A DNA stretch of 64,000 nt, from positions 257,238,001 to 257,302,000 of the forward strand of contig OZ024741.1 in the NCBI GenBank assembly GCA_964016885.1, in the 5' to 3' direction. Source of the stretch: Eledone cirrhosa (Eukaryota). Below the pieces are notes generated by a model. That model made no database searches, had not been told where the DNA came from, and saw nothing but the letters and a program-made list of their open reading frames with translations. Positions 1-64,000 of this stretch are shown in pieces. Within the stretch, counting starts at the first letter, position 1; every line of letters starts with the position of its first letter. A program made the position numbers and the translations under genes.

Positions 1-2153
1 CTACTTACGAGTGTTTTGAATTACGATTGTTTCGGCTTACGAGTGTTTCGACTTACGAGTATTTCGACTTACGAGTTTTTTTACTTACGGTGTTTCGGCT
101 TACGAGTGTTTCGACTTATGAGTGATCTGATTTACGGATGTTTCGACATACGAGTGTTTTGACTTACGGTGTTTCGACTTACGAGTGTTTCGACTTACTA
201 ATGTTTTTACTTACGAGTGTTTCGGCGTACGAGTGTTTCGACTTACGAGAGTTTCGACTTACGGGTGTTTTGACTTACGGGTGTTTCGGCTTACGAGGGT
301 TTCGACTTACGAGTGTTTTGACTTAAGGGTGTTTCGACTTACGAGTATTTTTGGCTTACGAGTGTTTCGACTTACGAGTGTTTTGACTTACGAGTGTTCT
401 AATTTATGGATGTTTCGACATACGAGTGTTTTGACTTACGAGTGTTTCGACTTACGAGTGTTTCGACTTACGAGTGTTTCGGCTTACGAGTGGTTTGACT
501 TACGAGTGTTCTGACTACGAGTGTTTTGACTTACGAGTGTTTCGGCTTATGAGTGTTTAGACTTACGAGTGTTTCCGCTTATGAGTGTTTCGACTTACGA
601 GTGTTTCGGTTTACGAGTGTTTCGACTTACGAGTGTTTCGACTTACGGGTGTTTCGACTGACGAGTGTTTCGACTACGAGTGTTTCGACTTACGAGTGTT
701 TCGGCGTACGAGTGTTTCGACATACGGGTGTTTCGACTTACGATGTTTCGGCTTACGAGTGTTTCGACTTACGAGTGTTCTGACTTACGAGTGTTCTGAC
801 TTATGAGTGTTCTGACTTACGAGTGTTCCGACTTACGAGTGTTTCGGCTTACGAGTGTTTCGGTTTACGAGTGTTTCGACTTACGAGTGTTTCGACTTAC
901 GAGTGTTTCGACTTACGAGTGTTTTGAGATACGGTGTTTCGGCTTACGAGTGTTTCGACTTACGAGTGTTTCGACTTACGAGTGTTTTGACATACGGTGT
1001 TTCGGCTTACGAGTGTTTCGACATACGGGTGTTTCGACTTACGGGTGTTTCGACTTAAGAGTGTTTCGACTTACGAGCGCTTCGACTAACGAGTGTTCTG
1101 ACTTACGAGTGTTCCGACTTACGAGTGTTTCTGCTTACGAGTGTTTCGACTTACGAGTGTTTCGACTTACGAGTGTTTCGGCGTACGAGTGTTTTGACTT
1201 ACGAGTGTTTCGACTTACGAGTGTTTCGACTTACGAGTGCTTTGACTTACGAATGTTTTGACTTACTTCGACTTACGAGTGATCTGACTTACGAGTGTTC
1301 CTACTTACAAGTGTTTCGACTTACGAGTGTTTCGACTTGCGAGTGTTTCGACTTACGAGTGTTTCGACTTACGAGTGTTCTGACTTACGAGTGTTCTGAC
1401 TTACGAGTGTTCCGACTTACGAGTGTTTCGGCTTACGAGTGTTTCGACTTACGAGTGTTCCGGCTTACGCATGTTCCGACTTACGAGTGTTTCGGCTTAT
1501 GAGTGTTTCGACTTACGAGTGTTTCGGTTTATGAGTGTTTCGACTTACGAGTGTTTCGGCTTACGAGTGTTTCGACTTACGAGTGTTTCGACATACGGGT
1601 GTTTCGACTTACGAGTGTTTCGACTACGAGTGTTTCGACTTACGAGTGTTTCGGCCTACGAGTGTTTCGACATACGGGTGTTTCGACTTACGGTGTTTCG
1701 GATTACGAGTGTTTCGACTTACGAGTGTTCTGACTTACGAGTGTTCTGACTTATGAGTGTTCTGACTTACGAGTGTTCCGACTTACGAGTGTTTCGGCTT
1801 ACCAGTGTTTCGGCTTACGAGTGTTTCGACTTACGAGTGTTTCGACTTACGAGTGTTTCGACTTACGAGTGTTTCGAATTATGAGTGTTTTGACTTACGG
1901 TGTTTCGGCTTACGAGTGTTTCGACTTACGAGTGTTTTGACTTACTGGTGTTTTGACATACGAGTGTTTCGATACGAGTGTTTCGACTTACGAGTGTTCT
2001 GACTTACGAGTGTTCTGACTTACGAGTGTTCTGACTTACGAGTGTTCTAACTTACGAGTGTTCTGACTTACGAGTGTTCTGACTTACGAGTGTTCCGACT
2101 TACGAGTGTTTCGGCTCACGAGTGTTTCGGCTTACGAGTGTTTCGACTTACGA

Positions 2154-2230
2154 AAATAACAAATAGACGCGGTTTCAAATCTCTATGCTTTTCAAATTCA
2201 TTACATTAATCTTTATTTATACGTTTCGCT
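2154..2230 (+). repeat. 77-bp AT-rich interspersed block, copy 1 (AAATCTCTATG allele)
   Basis: AAATAACAAATAGACGCGGTTTCAAATCTCTATGCTTTTCAAATTCATTACATTAATCTTTATTTATACGTTTCGCT inserted after ...GACTTACGA. The last ~8 bp blend into a degenerate monomer. Confidence 0.97.
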
Positions 2231-5200
2231 TTACGAGTGTTTCGACTTACGAGTGTTTCGACTTACGAGTGTTTCGGCTTACGAGTGTTTTGACTTACGA
2301 GTGTTTTGACTTACATGTGTTTCGACTTACGCGTGTTTCGACTTACGAGTGTTTCGACTTGCGAGTGTTTCGACTACGGGTGTTTCGACTTACGAATGTT
2401 TTGACTTACGGATGTTTTGACTTACGGGTGTTTCGGCTTACGAGTGTTTCGACTTACGAGTGTTCTGACTTACGAGTGTTCTGACTTACGAGTGTTCCGA
2501 CTTACGAGTGTTTCGACTTAAGAGTGTTTCGGATTACGAGTGCTTCGACTTACAAGTGTTTCGGCTAACGAGTGTTTCGACTTACGAGTATTCTGACTAC
2601 GAGTGTTCTGATTTACGGGTGTTCTGACTTACGAGTGTTCCGACTTACGAGTGTTTCGGCTTTCGAGTGTTTCGACTTACGAGTGTTTCGGGTTACGAGT
2701 GTTTCGACTTACGAATGTTTTAGCTTACGAGTGTTTCCGCTTACGAGTGTTTCGACTTACGAGTGTTTCGACTTACGAGTGTTTTGACTTACAGTTTTTC
2801 GGCTTGCGAGTGTTTCGACATACGAGTGTTTTGACTTACGGGCGTTTCGACTTACGGGTGTTTCGACTTACGAGTGTTTCGACTTACGAGTGTTCTGACT
2901 TACGAGTGTTCTGACTTACGAGTGTTCCGACTTACGAGTGTTTCGGCTTACGAGTGTTTCGACATACGAGTGTTTTGACTTACGGATGTTTCAACTTACG
3001 GGTGTTTCGACTTACGAGTGTTTCGACTTACGAGTGTTCTGACTACGAGTGTTTCGACTTACGAGTGTTTCGGCTTACGAGTGTTTCGACTTACGAGTGT
3101 TTTGACTTAGGAAGGTTTTGCCTTACGGGTGTTCCGGTTTACGAGTGTTTCGACTTACGAGTATTCTGACTTACGAGTGTTCCGACTTACGGGTGTTTCG
3201 ACTTACGAGTGTTTCGACTTACGAGTGTTCCGACCTATGAGGGTTTCGGCTTACTGGTGTTCCGACTTACGAGTATTTTCGGCTGACGAGTGTTTCGAGT
3301 TACGAGTGTTTTGACTTACGATTGTTTCGGCTTACGAGTGTTTCGGCTTACGAGTGTTTTGATTTACGAGTGTTTTGACTTACGGGTGTTTCGACTTACG
3401 CGTGTTTCGACTTACGAGTGTTTCGACTTACGAGTGTTTCGGCTTATGAGTGTTTCGAATTACGAGTGTTTTGACTTACGGGTGTTTTGACATACGAGTG
3501 TTTCGGTACGAGTGTTCTGACTTACGAGTGTTCTGACTTACGAGTGTTCTGACTTACGAGTGTTCTGACTTACGGGTGTTCTGACTTACGAGTGTTCCGA
3601 CTTACGAGTGTTTCGGCTATGAGTGTTTTGACTTACGGGTGTTTCGACTTACGGGTGTTTCAACTTACGAGTGTTTCGACTTACGTGTGTTTCCGCTTAC
3701 GAGTGTTTCGGCTTACGAGTGTTTCGAATTACGAGTGTTTTGGCTTACGAATGTTTTGACTTACGGGTGTTTCGGTGTACGAGTGTTTCGACTTAAGGAT
3801 GTTTCGACTTACGAGTGTTTCGACTTACAAGTGTTTCGACTTACGAGTGTTTCGACTTACGAGTGTTTTGGCTTACGAATGTTTTGACTTACGGGTGTTT
3901 CGACTTACGGGTGTTTCGGCTTACGAGTGTTTCGACTTACGAGTGTTTTGACTTACGAGTGTTCTGACTTACGAGTGTTCTGACTTACGAGTGTTCCGAC
4001 TTACGAGTGTTCCGACTTACGAGTGTTTCAGCTTACGAGTGTTTCGGCTTACGAGTGTTTCGGCTTACGAGTGTTTTGACTTACGAGTGTTCTGACTACG
4101 AGTGTTCTGACTTACGGGTGTTCTGACTTACGAGTGTTCCGACTTACGAGTGTTTCGGCTAATGAGTGTTTCGACTTACGGGCGTTTCGACTTACGGGTG
4201 TTTCGACTTACGAGTGTTTTGACTTACGAGTGTTCTGACTTACGAGTGTTCTGACTTACGAGAGTTCCGACTTACGACTGTTTCGACTTACGAGTGTTTT
4301 GACTTACGAGTGTTCCGACTTACGAGTGTTTCGGCTTACGGGTGTTTCGACGTACGAGTATTTTTGGCTTACGAGTGTTTCTACTTACGAGTGTTTTGAA
4401 TTACGATTGTTTCGGCTTACGAGTGTTTCGACTTATGAGTGTTCTGATTTACGGATGTTTCGACATACGAGTGTTTTGACTTACGGTGTTTCGACTTACG
4501 AGTGTTTCGACTTACGAGTGTTTCGACTTACGGGTGTTTCGACTTACGAGTGTTTCGACTTACGAGTGTTTCGACTTACGGGTGTTTCGGCTTACGAGTG
4601 TTTCGACTTACGAGTGTTCTGACTTACGAGTGTTCTGACTTACGAGTGTTCCGGCTTACAAGTGTTTCTACTTACGAGTGTTTCGACTTACGGGTGTTTT
4701 GACTTACGGGTGTTTCGGCTTACGAGTGTTTCGACTTACGAGTGTTTTGACTTAAGGGTGTTTCGACTTACGAGTATTTTTGGCTTACGAGTTTTTCGAC
4801 TTACGAGTGTTTTGACTTACGAGTGTTCTAATTTTCGGATGTTTCGACATACGAGTGTTTTGACTTACGAGTGTTTCGACTTACGAGTATTTCGACTTAC
4901 GAGTGTTTCGGCTTACGAGTGGTTTGACTTACGAGTGTTCTGACTACGAGTGTTTTGACTTACGAGTGTTTCGGCTTATGAGTGTTTCGACTTACGAGTG
5001 TTTCGGCTTATGAGTGTTTCGACTTACGAGTGTTTCGGTTTACGAGTGTTTCGACTTACGATTGTTTCGACTTACGGGTGTTTCGACTTACGAGTGTTTC
5101 GACTACGAGTGTTTCGACTTACAAGTGTTTCGGCTTACGAGTGTTTCGACATACGGGTGTTTCGACTTACGATGTTTCGGCTTACGAGTGTTTCGACTTA

Positions 5201-5888
5201 CGAGTGTTCTGACTTACGAGTGTTCTGACTTATGAGTGTTCTGACTTACGAGTGTTCCGACTTAAGAGTGTTTCGGCTTACGAGTGTTTCGGCTTACGAG
5301 TGTTTCGACTTACGAGTGTTTCGACTTACGAGTGTTTCGACTTACGACTGTTTCGACTTACGAGTGTTTTGAGATACGGTGTTTCGGCTTACGAGTCTTT
5401 CGACTTACGAGTGTTTTGACATACGGTGTTTCGGCTTACGAGTGTTTCGACATACGAGTGTTTTGACTTACGGGTGTTTCGACTTTCGGGTGTTTCGACT
5501 TAAGAGTGTTTCGACTTACGAGCGCTTCGACTTACGAGTGTTCTGACTTACGAGTGTTCCGACTTACGAGTGTTTCTGCTTACGAGTGTTCCGACTTACG
5601 AGTGTTTCGACTTACGAGTGTTTCGGCGTACGAATGTTTTGACTTACGGTGTTTCGACTTACGAGTGTTTCGACTTACGAGTGTTTTGACTTACCTTTGT
5701 TTTGACATACGAGTGTTTCGACTTACGAGTGTTCTGACTTACGAGTGTTCTGACTTACGAGTGTTCTGACTTACGAGTGTTCTAACTTACGAGTGTTCTG
5801 ACTTACGAGTGTTCTGACTTACGAGTGTTCCGACTTACGAGTGTTTCGGCTCACGAGTGTTTCGGCTTACGAGTGTTTCGACTTACGA

Positions 5889-5965
5889 AAATAACAAATA
5901 GACGCGGTTTCAAATCTCTATGCTTTTCAAATTCATTACATTAATCTTTATTTATACGTTTCGCT
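5889..5965 (+). repeat. 77-bp block, copy 2 (AAATCTCTATG allele)
   Basis: Direct match to copy 1, same insertion phase. Confidence 0.97.
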
Positions 5966-6510
5966 TTACGAGTGTTTCGACTTACGAGTGTTTCGACTTA
6001 CGAGTGTTTCGGCTTACGAGTGTTTTGACTTACGAGTGTTTTGACTTACATATGTTTCGACTTACGCGTGTTTCGACTTACGAGTGTTTCGACTTGCGAG
6101 TGTTTCGACTACGGGTGTTTCGACTTACGAATGTTTTGACTTACGGATGTTTTGACTTATGGGTGTTTCGGCTTACGAGTGTTTCGACTTACGAGTGTTT
6201 TGACATACGGTGTTTCGGCTTACGAGCGTTTCGACATACGAGTGTTTTGACTTACGGGTGTTTCGACTTACGGGTGTTTCGACTTAAGAGTGTTTCGACT
6301 TACGAGCGCTTCGACTTACGAGTGTTCTGACTTACGAGTGTTCCGACTTACGAGTGTTTCTGCTTACGAGTGTTTCGACTTACGAGTGTTTGGGCTTACG
6401 AGTGTTTCAGTGTTTCGGCTTACGTGTGTTTCGACTTACGAGTGTTTCGATTTACGAGTGTTTCGGCTTACGAGTGTTTCGGCTTACGAGTGTTTCGGCT
6501 TATTATATAT

Positions 6511-6588
6511 AAACGTTTCTATTTCCATCGTTTTATCGTAAACGTTTATATATTTCCATCGTTATATCATAACGTTTATATTTCCGTC
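6511..6588 (+). repeat. Degenerate ~30-bp tandem repeat, about 2.6 copies
   Basis: AAACGTTTCTATTTCCATCGTTTTATCGT (6511-6539), AAACGTTTATATATTTCCATCGTTATATCAT (6540-6570), AACGTTTATATTTCCGTC (6571-6588). Confidence 0.85.
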
Positions 6589-6747
6589 ACTAATCTCTTT
6601 TTCTCCTTTTTCGTTGTAACATATATTTATTTCAAAGATTTCACCGTATAGATAACATATATATTTATACATGCATAAAAGACACACTGAGAGACGGTGA
6701 ACATGTGGTGCCAAAAACATTTCTAATCCAAATCTCAACAATATCAG

Positions 6748-6809
6748 TATATAGACTAGATTTGCTAGCAGAAAACCGCCCACCGGGTGGTTTTCTGCTA
6801 GTCTATATA
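6748..6809. repeat. Inverted repeat / hairpin with CTAG at both ends of the core
   Basis: CTAGCAGAAAACCGCCC (6765-6781), loop ACC, GGGTGGTTTTCTGCTAG (6785-6801): 16 of 17 Watson-Crick pairs plus one G.T. Outer arms TATATAGA (6748-6755) and TCTATATA (6802-6809) extend the stem past a 9-nt bulge. Confidence 0.95.
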
Positions 6810-6816
6810 TATAAAA

Positions 6817-6923
6817 CTGAGGATGTCTGTCTGTGTGTGAGTTTGAATCCCTAAAACTCGAGAACCACCCAACCGACTGTTTTCAAACTTTACACATGTA
6901 ATACTTACGTTTCAGGGAGTGTT
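6817..6923 (+). repeat. ~110-bp direct repeat, copy 1 (Helitron-like 5' segment)
   Basis: CTGAGGATGTCTGTCTGTGTGTGAGTTTGAATCCCTAAAA...CCCAACCGA...TTTCAAACTTTACA...TACTTACGTTTCAGGGAGTGTT aligns by eye with 7094-7208. Confidence 0.93.
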
Positions 6924-7093
6924 CTGAGCAAAAAATATTTCAAATTTCCAATGCCCTAGGGACCACATTAGGCGATTTAGCGATCTCTCTCTATAATTCT
7001 TAGTCTTTCTCTTTTTAGATAGATACATACATATAACGTCGTGCCCTTATAATATCTGTCTGTATGTCTGGCTGTCTGCATTACGTCACTTCC

Positions 7094-7208
7094 CTGAGGA
7101 TGTCTGTCTGTGTGTGTGTCTGTGAGTTTGAATCCCTAAAATGCGAGAAGTACCCAACCGATTTTTTTCAAACTTTACATGTGTATTACTTATGTTTCAG
7201 GGAGTGTT
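7094..7208 (+). repeat. ~110-bp direct repeat, copy 2 (longer GT/GTCT microsatellite, several substitutions)
   Basis: CTGAGGATGTCTGTCTGTGTGTGTGTCTGTGAGTTTGAATCCCTAAAA...CCCAACCGA...TTTCAAACTTTACA...TACTTATGTTTCAGGGAGTGTT. Confidence 0.93.
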
Positions 7209-9397
7209 TGTTATGCACATAAAATTCAACCTTTTGATCTGGTGTTTCGACTTACGAGTGTTTCGACTTACGAGTGTTTCGGCTTACGAGTGGTTTGACT
7301 TACGAGTGTTCTGACTACGAGTGTTCTGACTTACGAGTGTTTCGGCTTATGAGTGTTTCGACTTACGAGTGTTTCGGTTTATGAGTGTTTCGACTTACGA
7401 GTGTTTCGGCTTACGAGTGTTTCGACTTACGAGTGTTTCGACTTACGGGTGTTTCGACTTACGAGTGTTTCGACTACGAGTGTTTCGACTTACGAGTGTT
7501 TCGGCTTACGAGTGTTTCGACATACGGGTGTTTCGACTTACGGTGTTTCGGCTTACGAGTGTTTCGACTTACGAGTGTTTTGACTTACGGTATTTCTGCT
7601 TACGAGTGTTTCGACTTACGAGTGTTACGAGTGTTCTGACTACGAGTGTTTCGACTTACGAGTGTTCTGACCTACGAGTGTTCTGACTTACGAGTTTTTC
7701 GACTTACGAGTGTTTTGACTTACGGGTGTTTCGACTTGCGAGTGTTTCGAGTTACGAGTGTTTCGAGTTACGAGTGTTTCGACTTACGAGTATTTTGACT
7801 TACGAATGTTCTGACTTACGGGTGTTTCGGCTTCCGAGTGTTTCGACTTACGAGTGTTATAACTTGCGGGTGTTTCGACTTACGCGTGTTTTGACTTACG
7901 GGCGTTTCGACTTAGGAGTGTTTCGACTACGAATGTTCCGACATACGAGTGTTTCGACTTACGAGTGTTTCGACTTACGAGTGTTCTGACTTACGAGTGT
8001 TCCGACTTACGAGTGTTTCGGCTTACGATTGTTTCGACTTACGAGTGTTTCGGTTTACGAGTGTTTCGACTTACGAGTGATTCGACTTACGAGTGTTCCG
8101 ACTTACGAGTGTTACGACTTACGAGTGTTCCGACTTACGAGTGTTTCGGCTTACGAGTGTTTCGGCTTACGAGTGTTTCGACTTACTAGTGTTTCGGCTT
8201 ACGAGTGTTTCGACTTACGGGTGTTTCGGCTTACGAGTGTTTCGACTTACGAGTGTTTCGACTTACGAGTGTTTTGACATACGGTGTTTAGGCTTACGAG
8301 CGTTTCGACATACGAGTGTTTTGACTTACGGGTGTTTCGACTTACGGGTGTTTCGACTTAAGAGCGTTTCGACTTACGAGCGCTTCGACTTACGAGCGTT
8401 CTGACTTACGAGTGTTCCGACTTACGAGTGTTTCTGCTTACGAGTGTTTCGACTTACGAGTGTTTCGACTTACGAGTGTTTCGACTTACGAATGTTTCGA
8501 CTTACGGGTGTTTCGGCTTACGAGTGTTTCGACTTACGAGTGTTTCGACTTACGAATGTTTCGACTTACGGGTGTTTCGGCTTACGAGTGGTTTGACTTA
8601 CGAGTGTTCTGACTTACGAGTGTTCCGGCTTACGAGTTTTTCGACTTACGAGTGTTTCGACTTACGAGTGTTTCGACTTACGAGTGTTTCGGCTTACGAG
8701 TGGTTTGAATTACGAGTGTTCTGACTACGAGTGTTCTGACTTACGAGTGTTTCGGCTTATGAGGGTTTCCACTTACGAGTGTTTCGGTTTATGAGTGTTT
8801 CGACTTACGAGTGTTTCGGCTTACGAGTGTTTCGACTTACGAGTGTTTCGACTTACGGGTGTTTCGTCTTACGAGTGTTTCGACTACGAGTGTTTCGACT
8901 TACGAGTGTTTCGGCTTACGAGTGTTTCGACATACGGGTGTTTCGACTTACGGTGTTTCGGCTTACGAGTGTTTCGACTTACGAGTGTTCTGACTTACGA
9001 GTGTTCTGACTTAAGAGTGTTCTGACTTACGAGTGTTCCGACTTACGAGTGTTTCGGCTTACGAGTGTTTCGGCTTACGAGTGTTTCGACTTACGAGTGT
9101 TTCGACTTACGAGTGTTTCGACTTATGAGTGTTTCGACTTATGAGTGTTTTGACTTACGGTGTTTCGGCTTACGAGTGTTTCGACTTACGAGTGTTTTGA
9201 CTTACTGGTGTTTTGACATACGAGTGTTTCAATACGAGTGTTTCGACTTACGAGTGTTCTGACTTACGAGTGTTCTGACTTACGAGTGTTCTGACTTACG
9301 AGTGTTCTAACTTACGAGGGTTTCGACTTACGAATGATCCGACTTACGAGTGTTTCGGCTCACGAGTGTTTCGGCTTACGAGTGTTTCGACTTACGA

Positions 9398-9474
9398 AAA
9401 TAACAAATAGACGCGGTTTCAAATCTCTATGCTTTTCAAATTCATTACATTAATCTTTATTTTTACGTTTCGCT
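9398..9474 (+). repeat. 77-bp block, copy 3 (AAATCTCTATG allele; TATTTTTACG variant)
   Basis: Direct match to copy 1 with one substitution. Confidence 0.97.
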
Positions 9475-13112: not shown

Positions 13113-13189
13113 AAATAACAAGTAGACGCGGATTCAAATATCTATGCTTTTCAAATTCATTACATTAATCTTTATTTATACGTTTCGCT
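13113..13189 (+). repeat. 77-bp block, copy 4 (CAAGTAGACGCGGATTC allele)
   Basis: Two substitutions shared only with copy 9. Confidence 0.97.
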
Positions 13190-13489
13190 TTACGAGTGTT
13201 TCGGCGTACGAGTGTTTCGACTTACGAGTGTTTTGACTTACGTGTGTTTCGGCATACGAGTGTTTTGACTTACGAGTGTTTTGACTTACGGGTGTTTCGG
13301 CTTACGAGTGTTTCGACTTACGAGTGTTCTGACTTACGAGTGTTCCGACTTACGAGCGTTCCGACTTACGAGTGTTTCGGCTTACGAGTGTTCCGACTTA
13401 CGAGTGTTTCGACTTACGAGTGTTTTGACTTACGGTGTTTCGGCTTACGAGTGTTTTGACTTACGAGTGTTTTGACTTACGGGTGATTT

Positions 13490-17637: not shown

Positions 17638-17714
17638 AAATAACAAATAGACGCGGTTTCAAATATCTATGCTTTTCAAATTCATTACATTAATATTTAT
17701 TTATACGTTTCGCT
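17638..17714 (+). repeat. 77-bp block, copy 5 (TTAATATTTA allele)
   Basis: Substitution shared only with copy 10. Confidence 0.97.
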
Positions 17715-21296: not shown

Positions 21297-21373
21297 AAAT
21301 AACAAATAGACGCGGTTTCAAATATCTATGCTTTTCAAATTCATTACATTAATCTTTATTTATACGTTTCGCT
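21297..21373 (+). repeat. 77-bp block, copy 6 (majority AAATATCTATG allele)
   Basis: Direct sequence match. Confidence 0.97.
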
Positions 21374-24185: not shown

Positions 24186-24262
24186 AAATAACAAATAGAC
24201 GCGGTTTCAAATATCTATGCTTTTCAAATTCATTACATTAATCTTTATTTATACGTTTCGCT
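24186..24262 (+). repeat. 77-bp block, copy 7
   Basis: Direct sequence match. Confidence 0.97.
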
Positions 24263-27845: not shown

Positions 27846-27922
27846 AAATAACAAATAGACGCGGTTTCAAATATCTATGCTTTTCAAATTCATTACATTA
27901 ATCTTTATTTATACGTTTCGCT
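27846..27922 (+). repeat. 77-bp block, copy 8
   Basis: Direct sequence match. Confidence 0.97.
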
Positions 27923-29247: not shown

Positions 29248-29324
29248 AAATAACAAGTAGACGCGGATTCAAATATCTATGCTTTTCAAATTCATTACAT
29301 TAATCTTTATTTCTACGTTTCGCT
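29248..29324 (+). repeat. 77-bp block, copy 9 (CAAGTAGACGCGGATTC allele; TATTTCTACG variant)
   Basis: Shares two substitutions with copy 4. Confidence 0.97.
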
Positions 29325-32178: not shown

Positions 32179-32255
32179 AAATAACAAATAGACGCGGTTT
32201 CAAATATCTATGCTTTTCAAATTCATTACATTAATATTTATTTATACGTTTCGCT
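32179..32255 (+). repeat. 77-bp block, copy 10 (TTAATATTTA allele)
   Basis: Shares its substitution with copy 5. Confidence 0.97.
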
Positions 32256-35837: not shown

Positions 35838-35914
35838 AAATAACAAATAGACGCGGTTTCAAATATCTATGCTTTTCAAATTCATTACATTAATTTTTAT
35901 TTATACGTTTCGCT
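35838..35914 (+). repeat. 77-bp block, copy 11 (TTAATTTTTA variant)
   Basis: Direct match with one private substitution. Confidence 0.97.
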
Positions 35915-38710: not shown

Positions 38711-38787
38711 AAATAACAAATAGACGCGGTTTCAAATATCTATGCTTTTCAAATTCATTACATTAATCTTTATTTATACGTTTCGCT
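38711..38787 (+). repeat. 77-bp block, copy 12
   Basis: Direct sequence match. Confidence 0.97.
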
Positions 38788-42129: not shown

Positions 42130-42206
42130 AAATAACAAATAGACGCGGTTTCAAATATCTATGCTTTTCAAATTCATTACATTAATCTTTATTTATACGT
42201 TTCGCT
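42130..42206 (+). repeat. 77-bp block, copy 13
   Basis: Direct sequence match. Confidence 0.97.
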
Positions 42207-45049: not shown

Positions 45050-45126
45050 AAATAACAAATAGACGCGGTTTCAAATATCTATGCTTTTCAAATTCATTAC
45101 ATTAATCTTTATTTATACGTTTCGCT
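45050..45126 (+). repeat. 77-bp block, copy 14
   Basis: Direct sequence match. Confidence 0.97.
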
Positions 45127-50463: not shown

Positions 50464-50540
50464 AAATAACAAATAGACGCGGTTTCAAATATCTATGCTT
50501 TTCAAATTCATTACATTAATCTTTATTTATACGTTTCGCT
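50464..50540 (+). repeat. 77-bp block, copy 15
   Basis: Direct sequence match; 8,334 bp after copy 13. Confidence 0.97.
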
Positions 50541-53383: not shown

Positions 53384-53460
53384 AAATAACAAATAGACGC
53401 GGTTTCAAATATCTATGCTTTTCAAATTCATTACATTAATCTTTATTTATACGTTTCGCT
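53384..53460 (+). repeat. 77-bp block, copy 16
   Basis: Direct sequence match; 8,334 bp after copy 14. Confidence 0.97.
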
Positions 53461-56400
53461 TTACGAGTGTTTCGGCGTACGAGTGTTTCGACTTACGAGT
53501 GTTTTGACTTACGTGTGTTTCGGCATACGAGTGTTTTGTCTTACGAGTGTTTTGACTTACGGGTGTTTCGGCTTACGAGTGTTTCGACTTACGAGTGTTC
53601 TGACTTACGAGTGTTCCAACTTACGAGCGTTCCGACTTACGAGTGTTTCGGCTTACGAGTGTTCCGACTTACGAGTGTTTCGACTTACGAGTGTTTTGAC
53701 TTACGGTGTTTCGGCTTACGAGTGTTTTGACTTACGAGTGTTTTGACTTACGGGTGATTTGACATACGAGTGTTCTGACTTACGAGTGTTCTGACTTACG
53801 AGTGTTCTGACTTACGAGTGTTCTGACTTACGAGTGGTCTGACTTACGGGTGTTCTTACTTACGAGTGTTCCGACTTACGGGTGTTCTGACTTACGTGTG
53901 TTCCGACTTACGAGTGTTTCGGTTATGGGTGTTTCGACTTACGAGTGTTTCGACTTACGAATGTTTTGGCTTACGAGTGTTTCGGCTTACGAATGTTTTG
54001 GCTTACGAGTGTTTCGGCTTACGGGTGTTTCGACTTACGAGTGTTTCGACTTACGAGTGTTTTGACTTACGGTGTTTCGGCTTACGATTTATTCGACTTA
54101 CGAGTGTTTCGACTTACGGGTGTTTCGACTTACTTGTGTTTCGACTTACGAGTGTTTCGACTTATGAGTGTTTCGACTTACGAGTGTTCTGACTTACGAG
54201 TGTTCTGACTTACGAGTGTTCCGACTTACGAGTGTTTCGGTTTACGAGTGTTTCGACATACGAGTGTTTTGACTTACGGGTGTTTCGACTTACGGGTGTT
54301 TCGACTTACGAGTGTTTCGGCTTACGAGTGTTCCGACTTACGAGTGTTTCGACTTACGAGTGTTTTGACTTACGGTGTTTCGGCTTACGAGTGTTTTGAC
54401 TTACGAGTGTTTTGACTTACGGGTGATTTGACATACGAGTGTTTCGATACGAGTGTTCTGACTTACGAGTGTTCTGACTTACGAGTGTTCTGACTTACGA
54501 GTGTTCTGACTTACGAGTGGTCTGACTTACGGGTGTTCTTACTTACGAGTGTTCCGACTTACGGGTGTTCTGACTTACGTGTGTTCCGACTTACGAGTGT
54601 TTCGGTTATGGGTGTTTCGACTTACGAGTGTTTCGACTTACGAATGTTTTGGCTTACGAGTGTTTCGGCTTACAAATGTTTTGGCTTACGAGTGTTTCGG
54701 CTTACGGGTGTTTCGACTTACGAGTGTTTCGACTTACGAGTGTTTTGACTTACGGTGTTTTGACATACGAGTGTTTCGATACGAGTGTTCTGACTTACGA
54801 GTGTTCTGACTTACGAGTGTTCTGACTTACGGGTGTTCTGACTTACGAGTGTTCCGACTTACGAGTGTTTCGGCTTATGAGGGTTTCGACTTACGAGTGC
54901 TTCGGCTTACGAGTGTTTCGACTTACGAGTGTTTCGGCTTACGAGTGTTTCGACTTACGAATGTTTTGGCTTACGAGTGTTTCGGCTTACGAGTGTTTCG
55001 ACTTACGAGTGTTTCGACTTATGGTGTTTCGGCTTACGAGTGTTTCGACATACGAGTGTTTTGACGTACGGGTGTTTCGACCTACGGGTCTTTCGACTTA
55101 CGAGTGTTTCGACTTACGAGTGTTTCGGCGTACGAGTGTTTCGACTTACGAGTGTTTCGACTTACGAGTGTTTCGACTTACGAGTGTTTCGACTTACGAG
55201 TGTTTTGAATTACGAGTGTTTTGACTTACGGTGTTTCTGCTTACGAGTGTTTCGACTTACGAGTGTTATGACTTACGGGTGTTTTGACATACGAGTGTTT
55301 TCGATACGAGTGTTTCGACTTACGAGTGTTTTGACTTACGAGTGTTTCGAGTTACGAGTGTTTCGACTTACGAATGTTTTTACTTACGAATGTTCTGACT
55401 TACGGGTGTTTCGGCTTACGAGTGTTTCGACTTACGAGTGTTTTAAATTACGGGTGTTTCTACTTACGCGTGTTTCGACTTGCAAGTGTTTCGACTTACG
55501 AGTGTTTCGACTACGAATGTTCCGACTTACGAGTGTTTCGACTTATGAGTGTTTCGACTTACGAGTGTTCTGACTTACGGGTGTTCCGAGTTACGAGTGT
55601 TTCGGCTTACGATTGTTTTGACTTACGATTGTATTGGCTTACGAATGTTTCGACTTACTTCGACTTACGAGTGATCTGACTTACGAGTGTTCCTACTTAC
55701 GAGTGTTTCGACTTAGGAGTGTTTCGACTTGCGAGTGTTTCGACTTACGAGTGTTTCGGCTTACGAGTGTTTCGGTGTTTCGGCTCACGTGTGTTTCGAC
55801 TTACGAGTGTTTCGACTTACGAGTGTTTCGGCTTATGAGTGTTTCGACTTACGAGTGCTTCGGCTTACGAGTGTTTCGACTTACGAGTGTTTCGGCTTAC
55901 GAGTGTTTCGACGTACGAATGTTTTGGCTTACGAGTGTTTCGGCTTATGAGTGTTTCGACTTACGAGTGTTTCGACATACGAGTGTTTCGGCTTACGAGT
56001 GTTTCGACTTACGAGTGTTTCGGCTTACGAGTGTTTCAGTGTTTCGGCTTACGTGTTTTTTGACTTACGAGTGTTTCGACTTACGAGTGTTTCGGCTTAC
56101 GAGTGTTTCGACTTACGATTGTTTGGGCTTAGGAATGTTTCGACTTACGAGTGTTTCGACTTACGAGTGTTTTGACTTACGGTGTTTCGGCTTACGAGTG
56201 TTTTGACTTACGAGTGTTTTGACTTACGCGTGTTTTGACATACGAGTGTTTCGATACGAGTGTTCTGACTTACGAGTGTTCTGACTTACGAGTGTTCTGA
56301 CTTACGAGTGTTCTGACTTACGAGTGGTCTGACTTACGGGTGTTCTGACTTACGAGTGTTCCGACTTACGAGTGTTTCAGCTTATGAGTGTTTCGACTTA

Positions 56401-57036
56401 CGAGTGCTTCGGTTTGCGAGTGTTTCGACTTACGAGTGTTTCGGCTTACGAGTGTTTCGACTTATGAGTGTTTCGACTTACGAGTGTTTTGACTTATGGT
56501 GTTTCGGCTTACGAGTGTTTCGACATACGAGTGTTTTGACTTACGCGGGTTTCGACTTACGGGTGTTTCGACGTAAGAGTGTTTCGACTTACGAGCGCTT
56601 CGACTTACGAGTGTTTCGACTTACGAGTGTTTCGGCGTACGAGTGTTTTGACTTACGAGTGCTTTGACTTACGAATGTTTTGAATTACTTCGACTTACGA
56701 GTGATCTGACTTACGAGTGTTCCTACTTACGAGTGTTTCGACTTACGAGTGTTCTGACTTACGAGTGTTCTGACTTACGAGTGTTCTGACTTACGAGTGT
56801 TCCGACTTACGAGTGTTTCGACTTACGAGTGTTTTGACTTACGAATGTTCTGACTTACGAGTGGTTCGCCTTACGAGTGTTTCGACTTACGAGTGTTTTA
56901 ACTTACGGGTGTTTCGACTTACGCGTGTTTTGACTTACGAGTGTTTCGATTTACGAGTGTTTCGACTTACGAATGTTCCGACTTACGAGTGTTTCTACTT
57001 ACGAGTGTTTCGGCTTACGAGTGTTTCGACTTACGA

Positions 57037-57113
57037 AAATAACAAATAGACGCGGTTTCAAATATCTATGCTTTTCAAATTCATTACATTAATCTTTATT
57101 TATACGTTTCGCT
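57037..57113 (+). repeat. 77-bp block, copy 17
   Basis: Direct sequence match. Confidence 0.97.
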
Positions 57114-59983
57114 TTACGAGTGTTTCGGCGTACGAGTGTTTCGACTTACGAGTGTTTTGACTTACGTGTGTTTCGGCATACGAGTGTTTTGTCTTACGAG
57201 TGTTTTGACTTACGGGTGTTTCGGCTTACGAGTGTTTCGACTTATGAGTGTTCTGACTTACGAGTGTTCCAACTTACGAGCGTTCCGACTTACGAGTGTT
57301 TCGGCTTACGAGTGTTCCGACTTACGAGTGTTTCGACTTACGAGTGTTTTGACTTACGGTGTTTCGGCTTACGAGTGTTTTGACTTACGAGTGTTTTGAC
57401 TTACGGGTGATTTGACATACGAGTGTTTCGATACGAGTGTTCTGACTTACGAGTGTTCTGACTTACGAGTGTTCTGACTTACGAGTGTTCTGACTTACGA
57501 GTGGTCTGACTTACGGGTGTTCTTACTTACGAGTGTTCCGACTTACGGGTGTTCTGACTTACGTGTGTTCCGACTTACGAGTGTTTCGGTTATGGGTGTT
57601 TCGACTTACGAGTGTTTCGACTTACGAATGTTTTGGCTTACGAGTGTTTCGGCTTACGAATGTTTTGGCTTACGAGTGTTTCGGCTTACGGGTGTTTCGA
57701 CTTACGAGTGTTTCGACTTACGAGTGTTTTGACTTACGGTGTTTCGGCTTACGATTTATTCGACTTACGAGTGTTTCGACTTACGGGTGTTTCGACTTAC
57801 TGGTGTTTCGACTTACGAGTGTTTCGACTTATGAGTGTTTCGACTTACGAGTGTTCTGACTTACGAGTGTTCTGACTTACGAGTGTTCCGACTTACGAGT
57901 GTTTCGGTTTACGAGTGTTTCGACATACGAGTGTTTTGACTTACGGGTGTTTCGACTTACGGGTGTTTCGACTTACGAGTGTTTCGGCTTACGAGTGTTT
58001 CGACTTACTAATGTTTTTACTTACGAGTGTTTCGGTGTACGAGTGTTTCGACTTAAGGATGTTTCGACTTGCGAGTGTTTCGACTTACGTGTGTTTCGGC
58101 TTACGTGAGTTTCGACTTAAGAGTGTTCTGATTTACGAGTGTTCTGACTTGCGGGTGTTCTGATTTACGAGTGTTCCGACTTACGAGTGTTTCGGCTTAT
58201 GAGTGTTTCGACTTACGAGTGTTTCGGCTTACGAGTGTTTCGACTGATGGGTGTTTCGACTTACGAGTGTTTTTACTTACGGTGTTTCGGCTTACGAGTG
58301 TTTCGACATACGAGTGTTCAGACTTACGAGTGTTCCGACTTACGAGCGTTCCGACTTACGAGTGTTTCGACTTACGAGTGTTAAGACTTACGGGTGTTTT
58401 GACATACGAGTGTTTCGATACGAGTGTTTCGACTTACGAGTGTTACGAGTGTTCTGACTTACGAGTGTTCTGACTTACGAGTGTTCTGACTTACGAGTGT
58501 TCTGATTTACGAGTGTTCTGACTTACGAGCGTTCTGACTTACGAGTGTTTCGGCTTACGAGTGTTTCGACTTACGAGTGTTCTGACTTACGAGTGTTCCG
58601 ACTTTCGAGCGTTCCGACTTACGAGTGTTTAGGCTTACAAGTGTTCCGACTTACGAGTGTTTCGAGTTACGAGTGTTTTGACTTACGGTGTTTCTGCTTA
58701 CGAGTGTTTCGACTTACGAGTGTTAAGACTTACGGGTGTTTTGACATACGAGTGTTTCGATACGAGTGTTTCGACTTACGAGTGTTACGAGTGTTCTGAC
58801 TTACGAGTGTTTCGACTTACGAGTGTTCTGACCTACAAGTGTTCTGACTTACGAGTGTTTCGACTTATGATTGTTTTTTTCACTTACGGGTGTTCCGACT
58901 TACGAGTGTTTCGACTTACGAGTGTTTGGACTTACGGGTGTTCCGACTTACGAGTGTTTCGGCTTACGATTGTTTCGACTTACGAGTGTTTCGGTTTACG
59001 AGTGTTTCGACTTACGGGTGTTTTGACTTACGATTGTTTGGGCTTACGAATGTTTCGACTTACGAGTGTTTCGACTTACGAGTGTTTTGACTTACGGTGT
59101 TTCGGCTTACGAGTGTTTTGACTTACGAGTGTTTTGACTTACGCGTGTTTTGACATACGAGTGTTTCGATACGAGTGTTCTGACTTACGAGTGTTCTGAC
59201 TTACGAGTGTTCTGACTTACGAGTGGTCTGACTTACGGGTGTTCTGACTTACGAGTGTTCCGACTTACGAGTGTTTCAGCTTATGAGTGTTTCGACTTAC
59301 GAGTGCTTCGGTTTGCGAGTGTTTCGACTTACGAGTGTTTCGGCTTACGAGTGTTTCGACTTATGAGTGTTTCGACTTACGAGTGTTTTGACTTATGGTG
59401 TTTCGGCTTACGAGTGTTTCGACATACGAGTGTTTTGACTTACGCGGGTTTCGACTTACGGGTGTTTCGACGTAAGAGTGTTTCGACTTACGAGCGCTTC
59501 GACTTACGAGTGTTTCGACTTACGAGTGTTTCGGCGTACGAGTGTTTTGACTTACGAGTGTTTCGACTTACGAGTGCTTTGACTTACGAATGTTTTGAAT
59601 TACTTCGACTTACGAGTGTTCCTACTTACGAGTGTTTCGTCTTACGAGTGTTTCGACTTGCGAGTGTTTCGACTTACGAGTGTTTCGACTTACGAGTGTT
59701 CTGACTTACGAGTGTTCTGACTTACGAGTGTTCTGACTTACGAGTGTTCCGACTTACGAGTGTTTCGACTTACGAGTGTTTTGACTTACGAATGTTCTGA
59801 CTTACGAGTGTTTCGCCTTACGAGTGTTTCGACTTACGAGTGTTTTAACTTACGGGTGTTTCGACTTACGCGTGTTTCGACTTATGAGTGTTTCGATTTA
59901 CGAGTGTTTCGACTTACGAATGTTCCGACTTACGAGTGTTTCTACTTACGAGTGTTTCGGCTTACGAGTGTTTCGACTTACGA

Positions 59984-60060
59984 AAATAACAAATAGACGC
60001 GGTTTCAAATATCTATGCTTTTCAAATTCATTACATTAATCTTTATTTATACATTTCGCT
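59984..60060 (+). repeat. 77-bp block, copy 18 (TATACATTTCG variant)
   Basis: Direct match with one CpG>CpA change. Confidence 0.97.
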
Positions 60061-62786
60061 TTACGAGTGTTTCGGCGTACGAGTGTTTCGACATACGAGT
60101 GTTTTGACTTACGTGTGTTTCGGCATACGAGTGTTTTGACTTACGAGTGTTTTGACTTACGGGTGTTTCGGCTTACGAGTGTTTCGACTTACGAGTGTTC
60201 TGACTTACGAGTGTTCCGACTTACGAGCGTTCCGACTTACGAGTGTTTCGGCTTACGAGTGTTCCGACTTACGAGTGTTTCGACTTACGAGTGTTTTGAC
60301 TTACGGTGTTTCGGCTTACGAGTGTTTCGACTTACGAGTGTTTTGACTTACGGGTGATTTGACATACGAGTGTTTCGATACGAGTGTTCTGACTTACGAG
60401 TGTTCTGACTTACGAGTGTTCTGACTTACGAGTGTTCTGACTTACGAGTGGTCTGACTTACGGGTGTTCTTACTTACGAGTGTTCCGACTTACGGGTGTT
60501 CTGACTTACGTGTGTTCCGACTTACGAGTGTTTCGGTTATGGGTGTTTCGACTTACGAGTGTTTCGACTTACGAATGTTTTGGCTTACGAGTGTTTCGGC
60601 TTACGAATGTTTTGGCTTACGAGTGTTTCGGCTTACGAGTGTTTTGACTTACGGTGTTTCGGCTTACGATTTATTCGACTTACGAGTGTTTCGACTTACG
60701 GGTGTTTCGACTTACTGGTGTTTCGACTTACGAGTGTTTCGACTTATGAGTGTTTCGACTTACGAGTGTTCTGACTTACGAGTGTTCTGACTTACGAGTG
60801 TTCCGACTTACGAGTGTTTCGGTTTACGAGTGTTTCGACATACGAGTGTTTTGACTTACGGGTGTTTCGACTTACGGGTGTTTCGACTTACGAGTGTTTC
60901 GGCTTACGAGTGTTTCGACTTACTAATGTTTTTACTTACGAGTGTTTCGGTGTACGAGTGTTTCGACTTAAGGATGTTTCGACTTGCGAGTGTTTCGACT
61001 TACGTGTGTTTCGGCTTACGTGAGTTTCGACTTAAGAGTGTTCTGATTTACGAGTGTTCTGACTTGCGGGTGTTCTGATTTACGAGTGTTCCGACTTACG
61101 AGTGTTTCGGCTGATGAGTGTTTCGACTTACGAGTGTTTCGGCTTACGAGTGTTTCGACTGATGGGTGTTTCGACTTACGAGTGTTTTTACTTACGGTGT
61201 TTCGGCTTACGAGTGTTTCGACATACGAGTGTTCAGACTTACGAGTGTTCCGACTTACGAGCGTTCCGACTTACGAGTGTTTCGACTTACGAGTGTTAAG
61301 ACTTACGGGTGTTTTGACATACGAGTGTTTCGATACGAGTGTTTCGACTTACGAGTGTTACGAGTGTTCTGACTTACGAGTGTTCTGACTTACGAGTGTT
61401 CTGACTTACGAGTGTTCTGATTTACGAGTGTTCTGACTTACGAGCGTTCTGACTTACGAGTGTTTCGGCTTACGAGTGTTTCGACTTACGAGTGTTCCGA
61501 CTTTCGAGCGTTCCGACTTACGAGTGTTTAGGCTTACAAGTGTTCCGACTTACGAGTGTTTCGAGTTACGAGTGTTTTGACTTACGGTGTTTCTGCTTAC
61601 GAGTGTTTCGACTTACGAGTGTTAAGACTTACGGGTGTTTTGACATACGAGTGTTTCGATACGAGTGTTTCGACTTACGAGTGTTACGAGTGTTCTGACT
61701 TACGAGTGTTTCGACTTACGATTGTTTTTTTCACTTACGGGTGTTCCGACTTACGAGTGTTTCGACTTACGAGTGTTTGGACTTACGGGTGTTCCGACTT
61801 ACGAGTGTTTCGGCTTACGATTGTTTCGACTTACGAGTGTTTCGGTTTACGAGTGTTTCGACTTACGAGTGTTTTGACTTACGGTGTTTCGGCTTACGAG
61901 TGTTTTGACTTACGAGTGTTTTGACTTACGCGTGTTTTGACATACGAGTGTTTCGATACGAGTGTTCTGACTTACGAGTGTTCTGACTTACGAGTGTTCT
62001 GACTTACGAGTGGTCTGACTTACGGGTGTTCTGACTTACGAGTGTTCCGACTTACGAGTGTTTCAGCTTATGAGTGTTTCGACTTACGAGTGCTTCGGTT
62101 TACGAGTGTTTCGACTTACGAGTGTTTCGGCTTACGAGTGTTTCGACTTATGAGTGTTTCGACTTACGAGTGTTTTGACTTATGGTGTTTCGGCTTACGA
62201 GTGTTTCGACATACGAGTGTTTTGACTTACGCGGGTTTCGACTTACGGGGTTTTCGACGTAAGAGTGTTTCGACTTACGAGCGCTTCGACTTACGAGTGT
62301 TTCGACTTACGAGTGTTTCGGCGTACGAGTGTTTTGACTTACGAGTGTTTCGACTTACGAGTGCTTTGACTTACGAATGTTTTGAATTACTTCGACTTAC
62401 GAGTGATCTGACTTACGAGTGTTCCTACTTACGAGTGTTTCGTCTTACGAGTGTTTCGACTTGCGAGTGTTTCGACTTACGAGTGTTTCGACTTACGAGT
62501 GTTCTGACTTACGAGTGTTCTGACTTACGAGTGTTCTGACTTACGAGTGTTCCGACTTACGAGTGTTTCGACTTACGAGTGTTTTGACTTACGAATGTTC
62601 TGACTTACGAGTGTTTCGCCTTACGAGTGTTTCGACTTACGAGTGTTTTAACTTACGGGTGTTTCGACTTACGCGTGTTTCGACTTACGAGTGTTTCGAT
62701 TTACGAGTGTTTCGACTTACGAATGTTCCGACTTACGAGTGTTTCTACTTACGAGTGTTTCGGCTTACGAGTGTTTCGACTTACGA

Positions 62787-62863
62787 TAATAACAAATAGA
62801 CGCGGTTTCAAATATCTATGCTTTTCAAATTCATTACATTAATCTTTATTTATACGTTTCGCT
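62787..62863 (+). repeat. 77-bp block, copy 19 (starts TAATAAC)
   Basis: Direct match with a first-base substitution. Confidence 0.97.
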
Positions 62864-64000
62864 TTACGAGTGTTTCGGCGTACGAGTGTTTCGACATTAC
62901 GAGTGTTTTGACTTACGTGTGTTTCGGCATACGAGTGTTTTGACTTACGAGTGTTTTGACTTACGGGTGTTTCGGCTTACGAGTGTTTCGACTTACGAGT
63001 GTTCTGACTTACGAGTGTTCCGACTTACGAGCGTTCCGACTTACGAGTGTTTCGGCTTACGAGTGTTCCGACTTACGAGTGTTTCGACTTACGAGTGTTT
63101 TGACTTACGGTGTTTCGGCTTACGAGTGTTTTGACTTACGAGTGTTTTGACTTACGGGTGATTTGACATACGAGTGTTTCGATACGAGTGTTCTGACTTA
63201 CGAGTGTTCTGACTTACGAGTGTTCTGACTTACGAGTGTTCTGACTTACGAGTGGTCTGACTTACGGGTGTTCTTACTTACGAGTGTTCCGACTTACGGG
63301 TGTTCTGACTTACGTGTGTTCCGACTTACGAGTGTTTCGGTTATGGGTGTTTCGACTTACGAGTGTTTCGACTTACGAATGTTTTGGCTTACGAGTGTTT
63401 CGGCTTACGAATGTTTTGGCTTACGAGTGTTTCGGCTTACGAGTGTTTTGACTTACGGTGTTTCGGCTTACGATTTATTCGACTTACGAGTGTTTCGACT
63501 TACGGGTGATTCGACTTACTGGTGTTTCGACTTACGAGTGTTTCGACTTATGAGTGTTTCGACTTACGAGTGTTCTGACTTACGAGTGTTCTGACTTACG
63601 AGTGTTCCGACTTACGAGTGTTTCGGTTTACGAGTGTTTCGACATACGAGTGTTTTGACTTACGGGTGTTTCGACTTACGGGTGTTTCGACTTACGAGTG
63701 TTTCGGCTTACGAGTGTTTCGACTTACTAATGTTTTTACTTACGAGTGTTTCGGTGTACGAGTGTTTCGACTTAAGGATGTTTCGACTTGCGAGTGTTTC
63801 GACTTACGTGTGTTTCGGCTTACGTGAGTTTCGACTTAAGAGTGTTCTGATTTACGAGTGTTCTGACTTGCGGGTGTTCTGATTTACGAGTGTTCCGACT
63901 TACGAGTGTTTCGGCTTATGAGTGTTTCGACTTACGAGTGTTTCGGCTTACGAGTGTTTCGACTGATGGGTGTTTCGACTTACGAGTGTTTTTACTTACG

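What the first reader, a model, noticed from the sequence alone, without database searches (positions are those of the whole stretch)
1..64000. Satellite monomer resembles a pogo/Tigger subterminal transposase-binding motif and a partial CENP-B box: candidate transposon-end-derived centromere-like array
Seen: each 16-mer contains TTCGACTTACGAG, with a TCG-N5-CGA dyad. Read as TTCG-ACTT-A-CG-AGTG, it matches 7 of the 9 essential positions of the CENP-B box core (TTCG-NNNN-A-NN-CGGG). The common variant TTCGACTTACGGG carries TTCG-N4-A plus CGGG with 2 bp shorter spacing. Established: CENP-B and fission yeast Abp1/Cbh1/Cbh2 are domesticated pogo-family transposases. From memory and not verified here: many pogo/Tigger ends read like CAG...CCTCGACTTACGA followed by 2-3 tandem CGACTTACGAG-like subrepeats at about 16-bp spacing. 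Inference: the subterminal repeat of a pogo/Tigger element may have amplified into thousands of tandem binding sites for a CENP-B-type HTH protein, serving as a centromere or heterochromatin platform or a transposase sink.
Basis: partly seen in the sequence, partly recalled or inferred. Interest (0 to 1): 0.75.

Follow-up and report, generated by a model that had tools for sequence, protein, structure and literature searches.

The report
Satellite grown from a Helitron's repeat
This window is part of an estimated 7-million-base run of a 16-letter repeat that still carries pieces of the small rolling-circle jumping gene it likely grew from; the repeat unit may in turn descend from the end of a second jumping-gene family (Tigger), but its likeness to the mammalian centromere-protein site is near chance and no centromere role is shown.

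Summary
The window is a 16-bp satellite of 3,930 monomers, broken by 19 copies of a 69-bp spacer and one 739-bp insert. Spacer, first monomer, last monomer and insert are modules of a dispersed, young ~510-bp non-autonomous Helitron that holds only 2-4 monomers. 16 of 17 dispersed monomer sites on C1 lie in it; none is a TIR element. So the array likely grew from this Helitron's inner repeat, not directly from a pogo end.

TA-flanked TIR elements here, and published Tigger TIRs, end in the same core, with subrepeats about 16 bp apart. An older capture of a Tigger end is therefore plausible (about even odds), but no direct donor was found and the unselected part of the match is weak (P 0.03-0.2).

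The CENP-B-box match (7 of 9) is real but weak (P 0.03-0.04), with 0 full boxes. About 90% of the satellite sits in one block on C2, so it is not pan-centromeric.

The scan reached the same Helitron reading on other windows of this block. This is a new member of a known kind.

The parts
1..64000 (+). 16-bp satellite, 3,930 monomers, part of a block spanning about C2:254.74-263.08 Mb
5889..6801 (+). Helitron lacking its first ~73 bp: spacer, inner repeat expanded from 4 to 35 monomers, complete 3' body
5958..6502 (+). 35 monomers bounded by the element's own degenerate first and last units
6503..6801 (+). 3' body of the non-autonomous Helitron, 97.3% identical without gaps to dispersed copy L001
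6765..6801 (+). 17-bp-stem terminal hairpin ending in CTAG (predicted, -17.7 kcal/mol)
6802..7241 (+). 5' fragment of a second Helitron-like family that also follows dispersed copies L001, L002, L010, L012, L023; truncated, then monomers resume
2154..2222 (+). 69-bp spacer (Helitron positions ~74-135 behind a fixed junction)
5889..5957 (+). 69-bp spacer
9398..9466 (+). 69-bp spacer (parser ended it at 9462)
13113..13181 (+). 69-bp spacer
17638..17706 (+). 69-bp spacer
21297..21365 (+). 69-bp spacer
24186..24254 (+). 69-bp spacer
27846..27914 (+). 69-bp spacer
29248..29316 (+). 69-bp spacer
32179..32247 (+). 69-bp spacer
35838..35906 (+). 69-bp spacer
38711..38779 (+). 69-bp spacer
42130..42198 (+). 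69-bp spacer
45050..45118 (+). 69-bp spacer
50464..50532 (+). 69-bp spacer
53384..53452 (+). 69-bp spacer
57037..57105 (+). 69-bp spacer
59984..60053 (+). 69-bp spacer
62787..62855 (+). 69-bp spacer

Best explanation
The array is a 16-bp satellite that carries the spacer, first unit, last unit and 3' end of a dispersed ~510-bp non-autonomous Helitron, and it likely grew from that element's 2-4-copy inner repeat, whose unit possibly descends from the subterminal repeats of a Tigger-type transposon end. Inferred steps: (1) a Helitron acquired or evolved the short inner repeat, with Tigger-end capture at about even odds; (2) in one copy the repeat expanded by slippage or unequal exchange; (3) a single rearrangement joined a monomer end to position ~74 of the element, making a spacer-plus-monomers macro-unit; (4) that unit was multiplied by unequal crossing-over, possibly helped by aberrant rolling-circle replication, into one ~6-Mb block on C2, with copies on C1 (~97 kb) and at C2:240.96 Mb (4 kb). 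It most likely behaves as chromosome-specific heterochromatic satellite in a multi-satellite block, not as a general centromere signal.
For: 16 of 17 dispersed monomer sites on C1 0-279 Mb share one element. All 16 start with TC; 14 of 16 showed the hairpin-CTAG end within the span scanned. Those 14 are 482-517 bp, 97.7% identical, with no terminal inverted repeat. 29 of 30 more fetched copies (4 of them places already seen; 1 not parsed) hold 2-4 units. All 19 window spacers align to element positions 74-190/197, and 6444-6801 aligns to 139-515. 18 of 19 spacers share one junction (1 has a one-letter change), and 19 of 19 are followed by the element's own first unit. Spacers differ 2.0% from the element; monomers differ 3.9% from consensus outside four polymorphic columns, and the A/G dimorphism mirrors the element's two unit types. 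A 4-kb array has 253 monomers, 6 spacers and one Helitron 3' end. A stop-broken RepHel Helitron (PF14214 E 2e-29, PF05970 E 6e-66) precedes the element at 3 loci at 96% identity. 25 of 40 even samples over C2 255-265 Mb are this satellite (~6.25 +/- 0.8 Mb) against a genome-wide estimate of 6.7 Mb; strand splits agree (20:5 and 79:21). Tigger step.
Against: Direction is inferred: no spacer-free ancestral array or outgroup genome could be examined. No census of element copies with five or more units was made, so intermediates are known from two places only (window 5889-6801). No element with an intact 5' end and an expanded repeat was seen. The canonical A|T target was not shown: the 5' neighbour base is G in 9, A in 6 and T in 1 of 16 copies, because copies sit in chains of Helitrons. 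For the Tigger step, no donor family with the monomer's linker was found. Units match only 8-10 of 16 in two families, and units 2-3 alone give joint P 0.23 (dinucleotide shuffles) or 0.026 (base shuffles).
Confidence: 0.75

Rival explanations
1. The Helitron's inner repeat arose locally by slippage, and the likeness to Tigger ends is coincidence; the Helitron-to-satellite steps are unchanged.
For: Two of the three TIR families were found with a motif made from the monomer, and the third through a published TIR chosen for its match. Unselected units give P 0.20-0.65 per family against dinucleotide shuffles. No Tigger terminus or body is recognisable around the inner repeat.
Against: Period (16 bp), core and TCG-N5-CGA geometry recur in two families (self-identity 0.68 and 0.56 at lag 16). 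The joint score over all units gives P 0.014 and 0.0005. The element's odd first unit equals the inner 12 letters of a published octopus Tigger TIR.
Confidence: 0.4
2. The satellite came first; a Helitron captured four units, and a piece of that Helitron later invaded the array and was spread by homogenisation.
For: Helitrons capture host DNA, including tandem repeats (PMC12628747, passages). Monomers diverge more from consensus (8.9%) than spacers from the element (2.0%). A related Helitron lacks the repeat at this position (L098, by eye).
Against: Spacers occur in every longer stretch of the array examined (window) with one junction, and both degenerate border units of the element are kept in the array. 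Most monomer variation sits in four columns.
Confidence: 0.12
3. The array is a binding platform for a domesticated CENP-B-type protein and serves as the centromere or heterochromatin seed of C2.
For: An intact 553-aa CENP-B_N + HTH_Tnp_Tc5 + DDE_1 ORF lies on C6, 77% identical to an Octopus sinensis TIGD4-like protein. The third catalytic Asp position reads Arg in both (my reading of the alignment). The block lies mid-chromosome among other satellites. A neighbouring 19-bp satellite also resembles Tigger TIRs (P 0.006 and 0.035).
Against: 0 full CENP-B boxes. About 90% lies on one chromosome. The satellite is about as young as a 97.7%-identical transposon family. Nothing links that protein to this motif.
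Confidence: 0.07
4. One reading: a pogo/Tigger end amplified directly into the array.
For: Tigger ends share the core, and a 45-bp tandem array built directly from such an end exists on C1467.
Against: No TIR element carries the monomer: 0 of 17 dispersed sites on C1, 0 matches of the recalled end, and no excess similarity in 30 of 150 HTH_Tnp_Tc5 loci. Every non-repeat piece in the array is Helitron-derived.
Confidence: 0.04

Closest known systems
DINE-TR1 / dmgsat-7 of Drosophila and Cg_HINE / Cg170-HindIII of the oyster: satellites from central tandem repeats of non-autonomous Helitron-superfamily elements (PMC9957191, PMC7492417, PMC12628747; passages read)
   Same: Two conserved flanks around a short central repeat, a microsatellite in the left flank, a 3' palindrome, and the same repeat present both as dispersed short arrays and as long arrays, including forms with a Helitron piece on one side only.
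   Different: The carrier has canonical TC...CTAG ends rather than the subTIR structure described for Helentrons. The unit is 16 bp, not ~150-170 bp. A 69-bp piece of the left flank recurs every 84-339 monomers. The unit resembles a Tigger end.
Canonical Helitrons (Helibat/Helraiser; PMC4778049, passages read) and tandem truncated Helitron arrays (Xiong 2016, as summarised in PMC12628747)
   Same: 5'-TC and CTAG-3' ends, a 3' hairpin, no TIR, a RepHel partner, head-to-tail chains, and several 5' modules with one 3' end.
   Different: The hairpin runs to the last base instead of ending 11 nt before it. The repeated module lacks the 5' terminus itself. The A|T target was not shown.
Tigger (pogo superfamily) ends (PMC7386202 suppl. 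3 and PMC9219625 suppl. 1, rows found by search)
   Same: The monomer core matches the inner TIR half: 12 of 12 for the element's first unit against Ocbi-Tig1B and 12 of 13 for the consensus against a Dufourea Tigger. In-genome family 1 TIR matches the Pomacea Tigger TIR at 22 of 23 (all by eye). Subrepeats lie 15-16 bp apart.
   Different: The array and its carrier have no TIR start, no TA duplication and no transposase; the linker between cores differs.
Mammalian CENP-B box (PMC11060027, PMC11804003; passages read)
   Same: 7 of 9 core positions; a shared pogo ancestry of such motifs is proposed in the literature (PMC6947457, PMC7325037; passages).
   Different: No full box in 64 kb and the second CpG is misplaced. 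Loss of two essential positions is discussed as contributing to lost binding in donkey (PMC11804003). The array is not on all chromosomes.

Membership tests
Non-autonomous canonical Helitron (carrier element) | 5'-TC and CTRR-3' termini | tested here: met
   TC start in 16 of 16 and CTAG end in 14 of 16; both ends in 29 of 30
Non-autonomous canonical Helitron (carrier element) | 3' subterminal hairpin, no terminal inverted repeats | tested here: met
   17-bp stem predicted; 5' end and reversed 3' end unlike
Non-autonomous canonical Helitron (carrier element) | Insertion between A and T without duplication | tested here: inconclusive
   3' neighbour is T in 14 of 14 but is nearly always another Helitron's start; 5' neighbour is G 9, A 6, T 1 of 16
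Non-autonomous canonical Helitron (carrier element) | RepHel partner in the genome | tested here: met
   Stop-broken RepHel adjoining the element at 3 loci; an intact copy was not sought
Helitron-CTR-derived satellite | Same repeat as short central array in dispersed elements and as long array with element remnants | tested here: met
Helitron-CTR-derived satellite | Element older than array | not testable with these tools
   no related genomes are held
pogo/Tigger element or MITE (as direct source) | TA-flanked TIRs around the monomers | tested here: not met
   0 of 17 dispersed sites; 0 matches of the recalled end
pogo/Tigger element or MITE (as direct source) | Monomer matches Tigger TIR core and subrepeat period | tested here: inconclusive
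   joint P 0.014 / 0.0005 with selected units, 0.23 / 0.026 without; published TIR rows
pogo/Tigger element or MITE (as direct source) | In-genome TIR families linked to a pogo transposase | tested here: inconclusive
   no family 1 or 2 TIR near 30 of 150 HTH_Tnp_Tc5 loci; only weak transposase hits at 1 of 29 and 1 of 30 TIR loci; assigned to Tigger by TIR likeness only
CENP-B-box satellite | All nine essential positions | tested here: not met
CENP-B-box satellite | Binding by a CENP-B-type protein | not testable with these tools
   candidate protein exists; no binding data
Centromeric satellite | One major array per chromosome | tested here: not met
   about 6.25 of an estimated 6.7 Mb in one C2 block; other chromosomes were not listed one by one
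Centromeric satellite | CENH3 occupancy | not testable with these tools
   no chromatin data among the runs listed

The most novel reading that the evidence does not exclude
A two-transposon relay: a Tigger transposase-binding end was captured by a Helitron and amplified into about 400,000 tandem sites. Together with the 19-bp and 45-bp satellites that also resemble Tigger ends, this forms a recurring class of arrays bound by an octopod-conserved, catalytically dead CENP-B-like protein: an independent CENP-B/CENP-B-box system at cephalopod centromeric heterochromatin.
Probability: 0.07. Interest if true: 0.8.

Novelty: new member of a known kind. Interest (0 to 1): 0.36.

Why it matters
It is an unusually traceable case of satellite birth: the donor element is still dispersed at about 98% identity, and its border units and flank survive in a multi-megabase array, so the steps can be dated across related species. 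If the unit is a captured Tigger end, it is a two-transposon route to satellite DNA that I did not find described (searches). It would also give a concrete protein-DNA pair to test in a group whose centromeres my searches did not find characterised. Without binding data it remains an ordinary transposon-derived satellite.

Tried and rejected
Exact recalled pogo end: 0 matches.

Monomer likeness near transposase genes: 30 of 150 PF03221 loci, best 3-5 mismatches against 2-5 in shuffles.

First profile test mixed the two unlike ends of TIR family 1 and gave P 0.34-0.98 for unselected units. It was redone on the repeat-bearing end only, and family 1 stayed non-significant (P 0.11-0.65).

The family 3 statistics were computed on the wrong orientation and are discarded; one search replaces them. 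The dinucleotide null has only 659 distinct circular shuffles, so it is conservative.

Search for a Tig1B-like donor: 104 matches, 100 listed; 98 of these fall in three tandem arrays that did not otherwise look TIR-derived, and 2 led to family 3, which is not a direct donor.

Flank agreement between family 2 ends and the Helitron inner repeat adds only 3 score points over pure repeat, so it is not used.

16-mer against 19-mer satellite: P 0.18-0.26, no common origin shown.

CpG decay as a sign of protection: C-to-T at the first CpG is 32% but G-to-A is 2%, which points to early amplification of variants, so nothing is inferred.

Sequencing runs: no RNA holder listed. Contigs of 4 runs under other organism codes hold the monomer, and 2 hold the monomer-to-spacer joint, but at trace depth of the element body. 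Carry-over cannot be told from sharing, so this is not used for species range or as independent support.

A long-duplication megablast returned no rows; higher-order periods rest on 60-mer distances.

Supplements of PMC7325037 held none of four TIR terms. Supplements of the centromere-atlas preprint were not seen; its main text has no mollusc mention.

No genome-wide census of element copies with five or more units was obtained.

Full report
OBSERVATION. The window is one 16-bp tandem array. A wraparound parse gives 3,930 monomers of 271 types, 19 copies of a 69-bp AT-rich spacer and one 739-bp insert at 6503-7241. The dyad occurs 1,687 times and the GGG variant 62 times. The consensus does match 7 of 9 CENP-B-box positions, but 3.3-4.4% of shuffled or random 16-mers do too, and the window has no 9-of-9 site. 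Identical 60-mers recur mainly at 1.6-3.7 kb and 14.5 kb, so there is higher-order duplication.

THE CARRIER. A 14-letter monomer motif has 125,119 matches in the 3.0-Gb genome against 13 in the control. Before the first array on C1 there are 26 matches at 17 places. 16 places share one element and one is unrelated. The element starts with TC, has a short microsatellite, then the window's spacer, 3-4 monomers, the first 299 bp of the window's insert, and a hairpin ending in CTAG. The 14 complete copies are 482-517 bp and 97.7% identical, with no TIR. Thirty best hits of the body (of 1,305 candidates, 40 scored; 4 are places already seen) gave 29 with 2-4 units and 1 unparsed. A stop-broken RepHel Helitron lies directly upstream at L004, and its 3' part precedes the element at L010 and L167 as well. 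These are the hallmarks of canonical Helitrons (PMC4778049, passages). The A|T target could not be shown because copies sit in Helitron chains.

ARRAY FROM ELEMENT. All 19 spacers align to the element from position 74, and 6444-6801 aligns to its whole 3' part. The junction is the same in 18 of 19, and the element's odd first unit follows all 19. Window 5889-6801 is the element minus 73 bp with 35 monomers instead of 4; its body is 97.3% identical to L001, and the same second Helitron follows it. A 4-kb array at C2:240.96 Mb has 253 monomers, 6 spacers and one such 3' end. Spacers differ 2.0% from the element, and monomers 3.9% outside four polymorphic columns. Shown: shared modules. Inferred: direction, a single junction event, and growth by unequal exchange, with rolling-circle help possible (model in PMC12628747, passages).

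DISTRIBUTION. Window density (1,192 motif matches) scales to about 6.7 Mb genome-wide. 25 of 40 evenly spaced samples over C2 255-265 Mb are this satellite, about 6.25 +/- 0.8 Mb, 20 plus and 5 minus, matching the genome-wide 79:21 split. The block runs about 254.74-263.08 Mb, interleaved with 36-bp, 6-bp and other repeats; the C1 array is about 97 kb. So this is essentially one chromosome's satellite. Whether the block holds the C2 centromere is open. Arrays missing from the assembly would weaken the estimate.

THE TIGGER LINK. The exact recalled end is absent. A loosened form gave 24 matches against 6, and 10 of the 24 have a paired TIR. Three TA-flanked TIR families emerged (12, 29 and 30 loci examined). 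Families 1 and 3 have three subrepeats at 16-bp spacing (self-identity 0.68 and 0.56) matching the monomer at 8-10 of 16; family 2 has 15-17-bp units. Published Tigger TIRs carry the same core. Family 1 matches the Pomacea TIR at 22 of 23; the element's first unit equals the inner 12 letters of octopus Ocbi-Tig1B, whose next subrepeat lies 15 bp on; the consensus matches a Dufourea TIR at 12 of 13 (supplement rows of PMC7386202 and PMC9219625, read by eye). Statistically the joint match is P 0.014 (dinucleotide) and 0.0005 (base shuffles) over all units, but 0.23 and 0.026 over units not used in the search. The families were also found with motifs chosen for likeness. No direct donor and no transposase tied to these TIRs was found. 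I put capture of a Tigger end at about even odds.

CENP-B-TYPE PROTEIN. PF03221 has at least 150 matches. The best lies in an intact 553-aa CENP-B_N + HTH_Tnp_Tc5 + DDE_1 ORF, 77% identical to an Octopus sinensis TIGD4-like protein, with the next hit at 37%. It is likely domesticated (inference). This also places the genome among octopods. Nothing links the protein to the array. Repeated pogo domestication is known (PMC4231638, passages).

COMPARISON AND VERDICT. It works like the Drosophila DINE-TR1 and oyster Cg_HINE satellites (PMC9957191, PMC7492417, passages), with a canonical Helitron carrier and a recurring flank piece. It is not a CENP-B-box satellite and not a directly pogo-derived array. 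Earlier scan notes on other windows of this block reached the same Helitron reading. I saw them after my own tests; they are unreviewed and not independent. Papers were seen as search listings, matched passages or supplement rows, and none was read whole. New member of a known kind, interest 0.36; the relay-plus-binding reading has probability about 0.07.

Noticed in passing
G000 C1:279.408-279.474 Mb (L305-L309); short copies at C5:60.68-60.69 Mb: A 19-bp satellite next to the C1 copy of this array, found by blind sampling, resembles in-genome Tigger-type TIRs (P 0.006 for family 3, 0.035 for family 1, 0.25 for family 2; six other neighbouring satellites P 0.07 or more).
   Followed up: partly
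L103/L104 (G000 C1467:~10.0-11.2 kb): A 45-bp tandem array built from a family-2 TIR end, running out into the element's subterminal repeats: a direct TIR-to-tandem-repeat case.
   Followed up: partly
L031:1159-2820 (G000 C6:60.688 Mb): Intact CENP-B_N + HTH_Tnp_Tc5 + DDE_1 ORF, 77% identical to an Octopus sinensis TIGD4-like protein, third catalytic position Arg in both; likely domesticated.
   Followed up: partly
L105 minus strand (G000 C1:84.590-84.597 Mb): Near-full-length RepHel Helitron broken by in-frame stops, chained to the carrier element at three loci.
   Followed up: partly
L001-L026, L165-L194: The carrier's 3' end is nearly always followed directly by the TC start of another Helitron (14 of 14; 28 of 29), suggesting chain formation or targeting.
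   Followed up: no
G000 C1:279.295 Mb (L027) and C2:249-251 Mb (L106, L107): The same ~24-bp satellite family flanks both arrays, each at about 60-63% of contig length; it is a candidate for a shared (peri)centromeric repeat.
   Followed up: no
G000 C2:259.0-260.0 Mb (L141-L145): About 1.2 Mb of the block is inverted relative to the rest.
   Followed up: no
G000 C2:210.18 Mb, C4:66.94 Mb, C15:40.29 Mb: Tandem arrays of about 68, 43 and 32 bp that contain a Tigger-like TIR start motif but no further TIR likeness by eye.
   Followed up: partly
L168, L172, L177, L180, L006, L010: A SINE-like repeat (identity recalled, not tested) has inserted repeatedly at the AT-rich sites just after the inner repeat or near the element start.
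   Followed up: no
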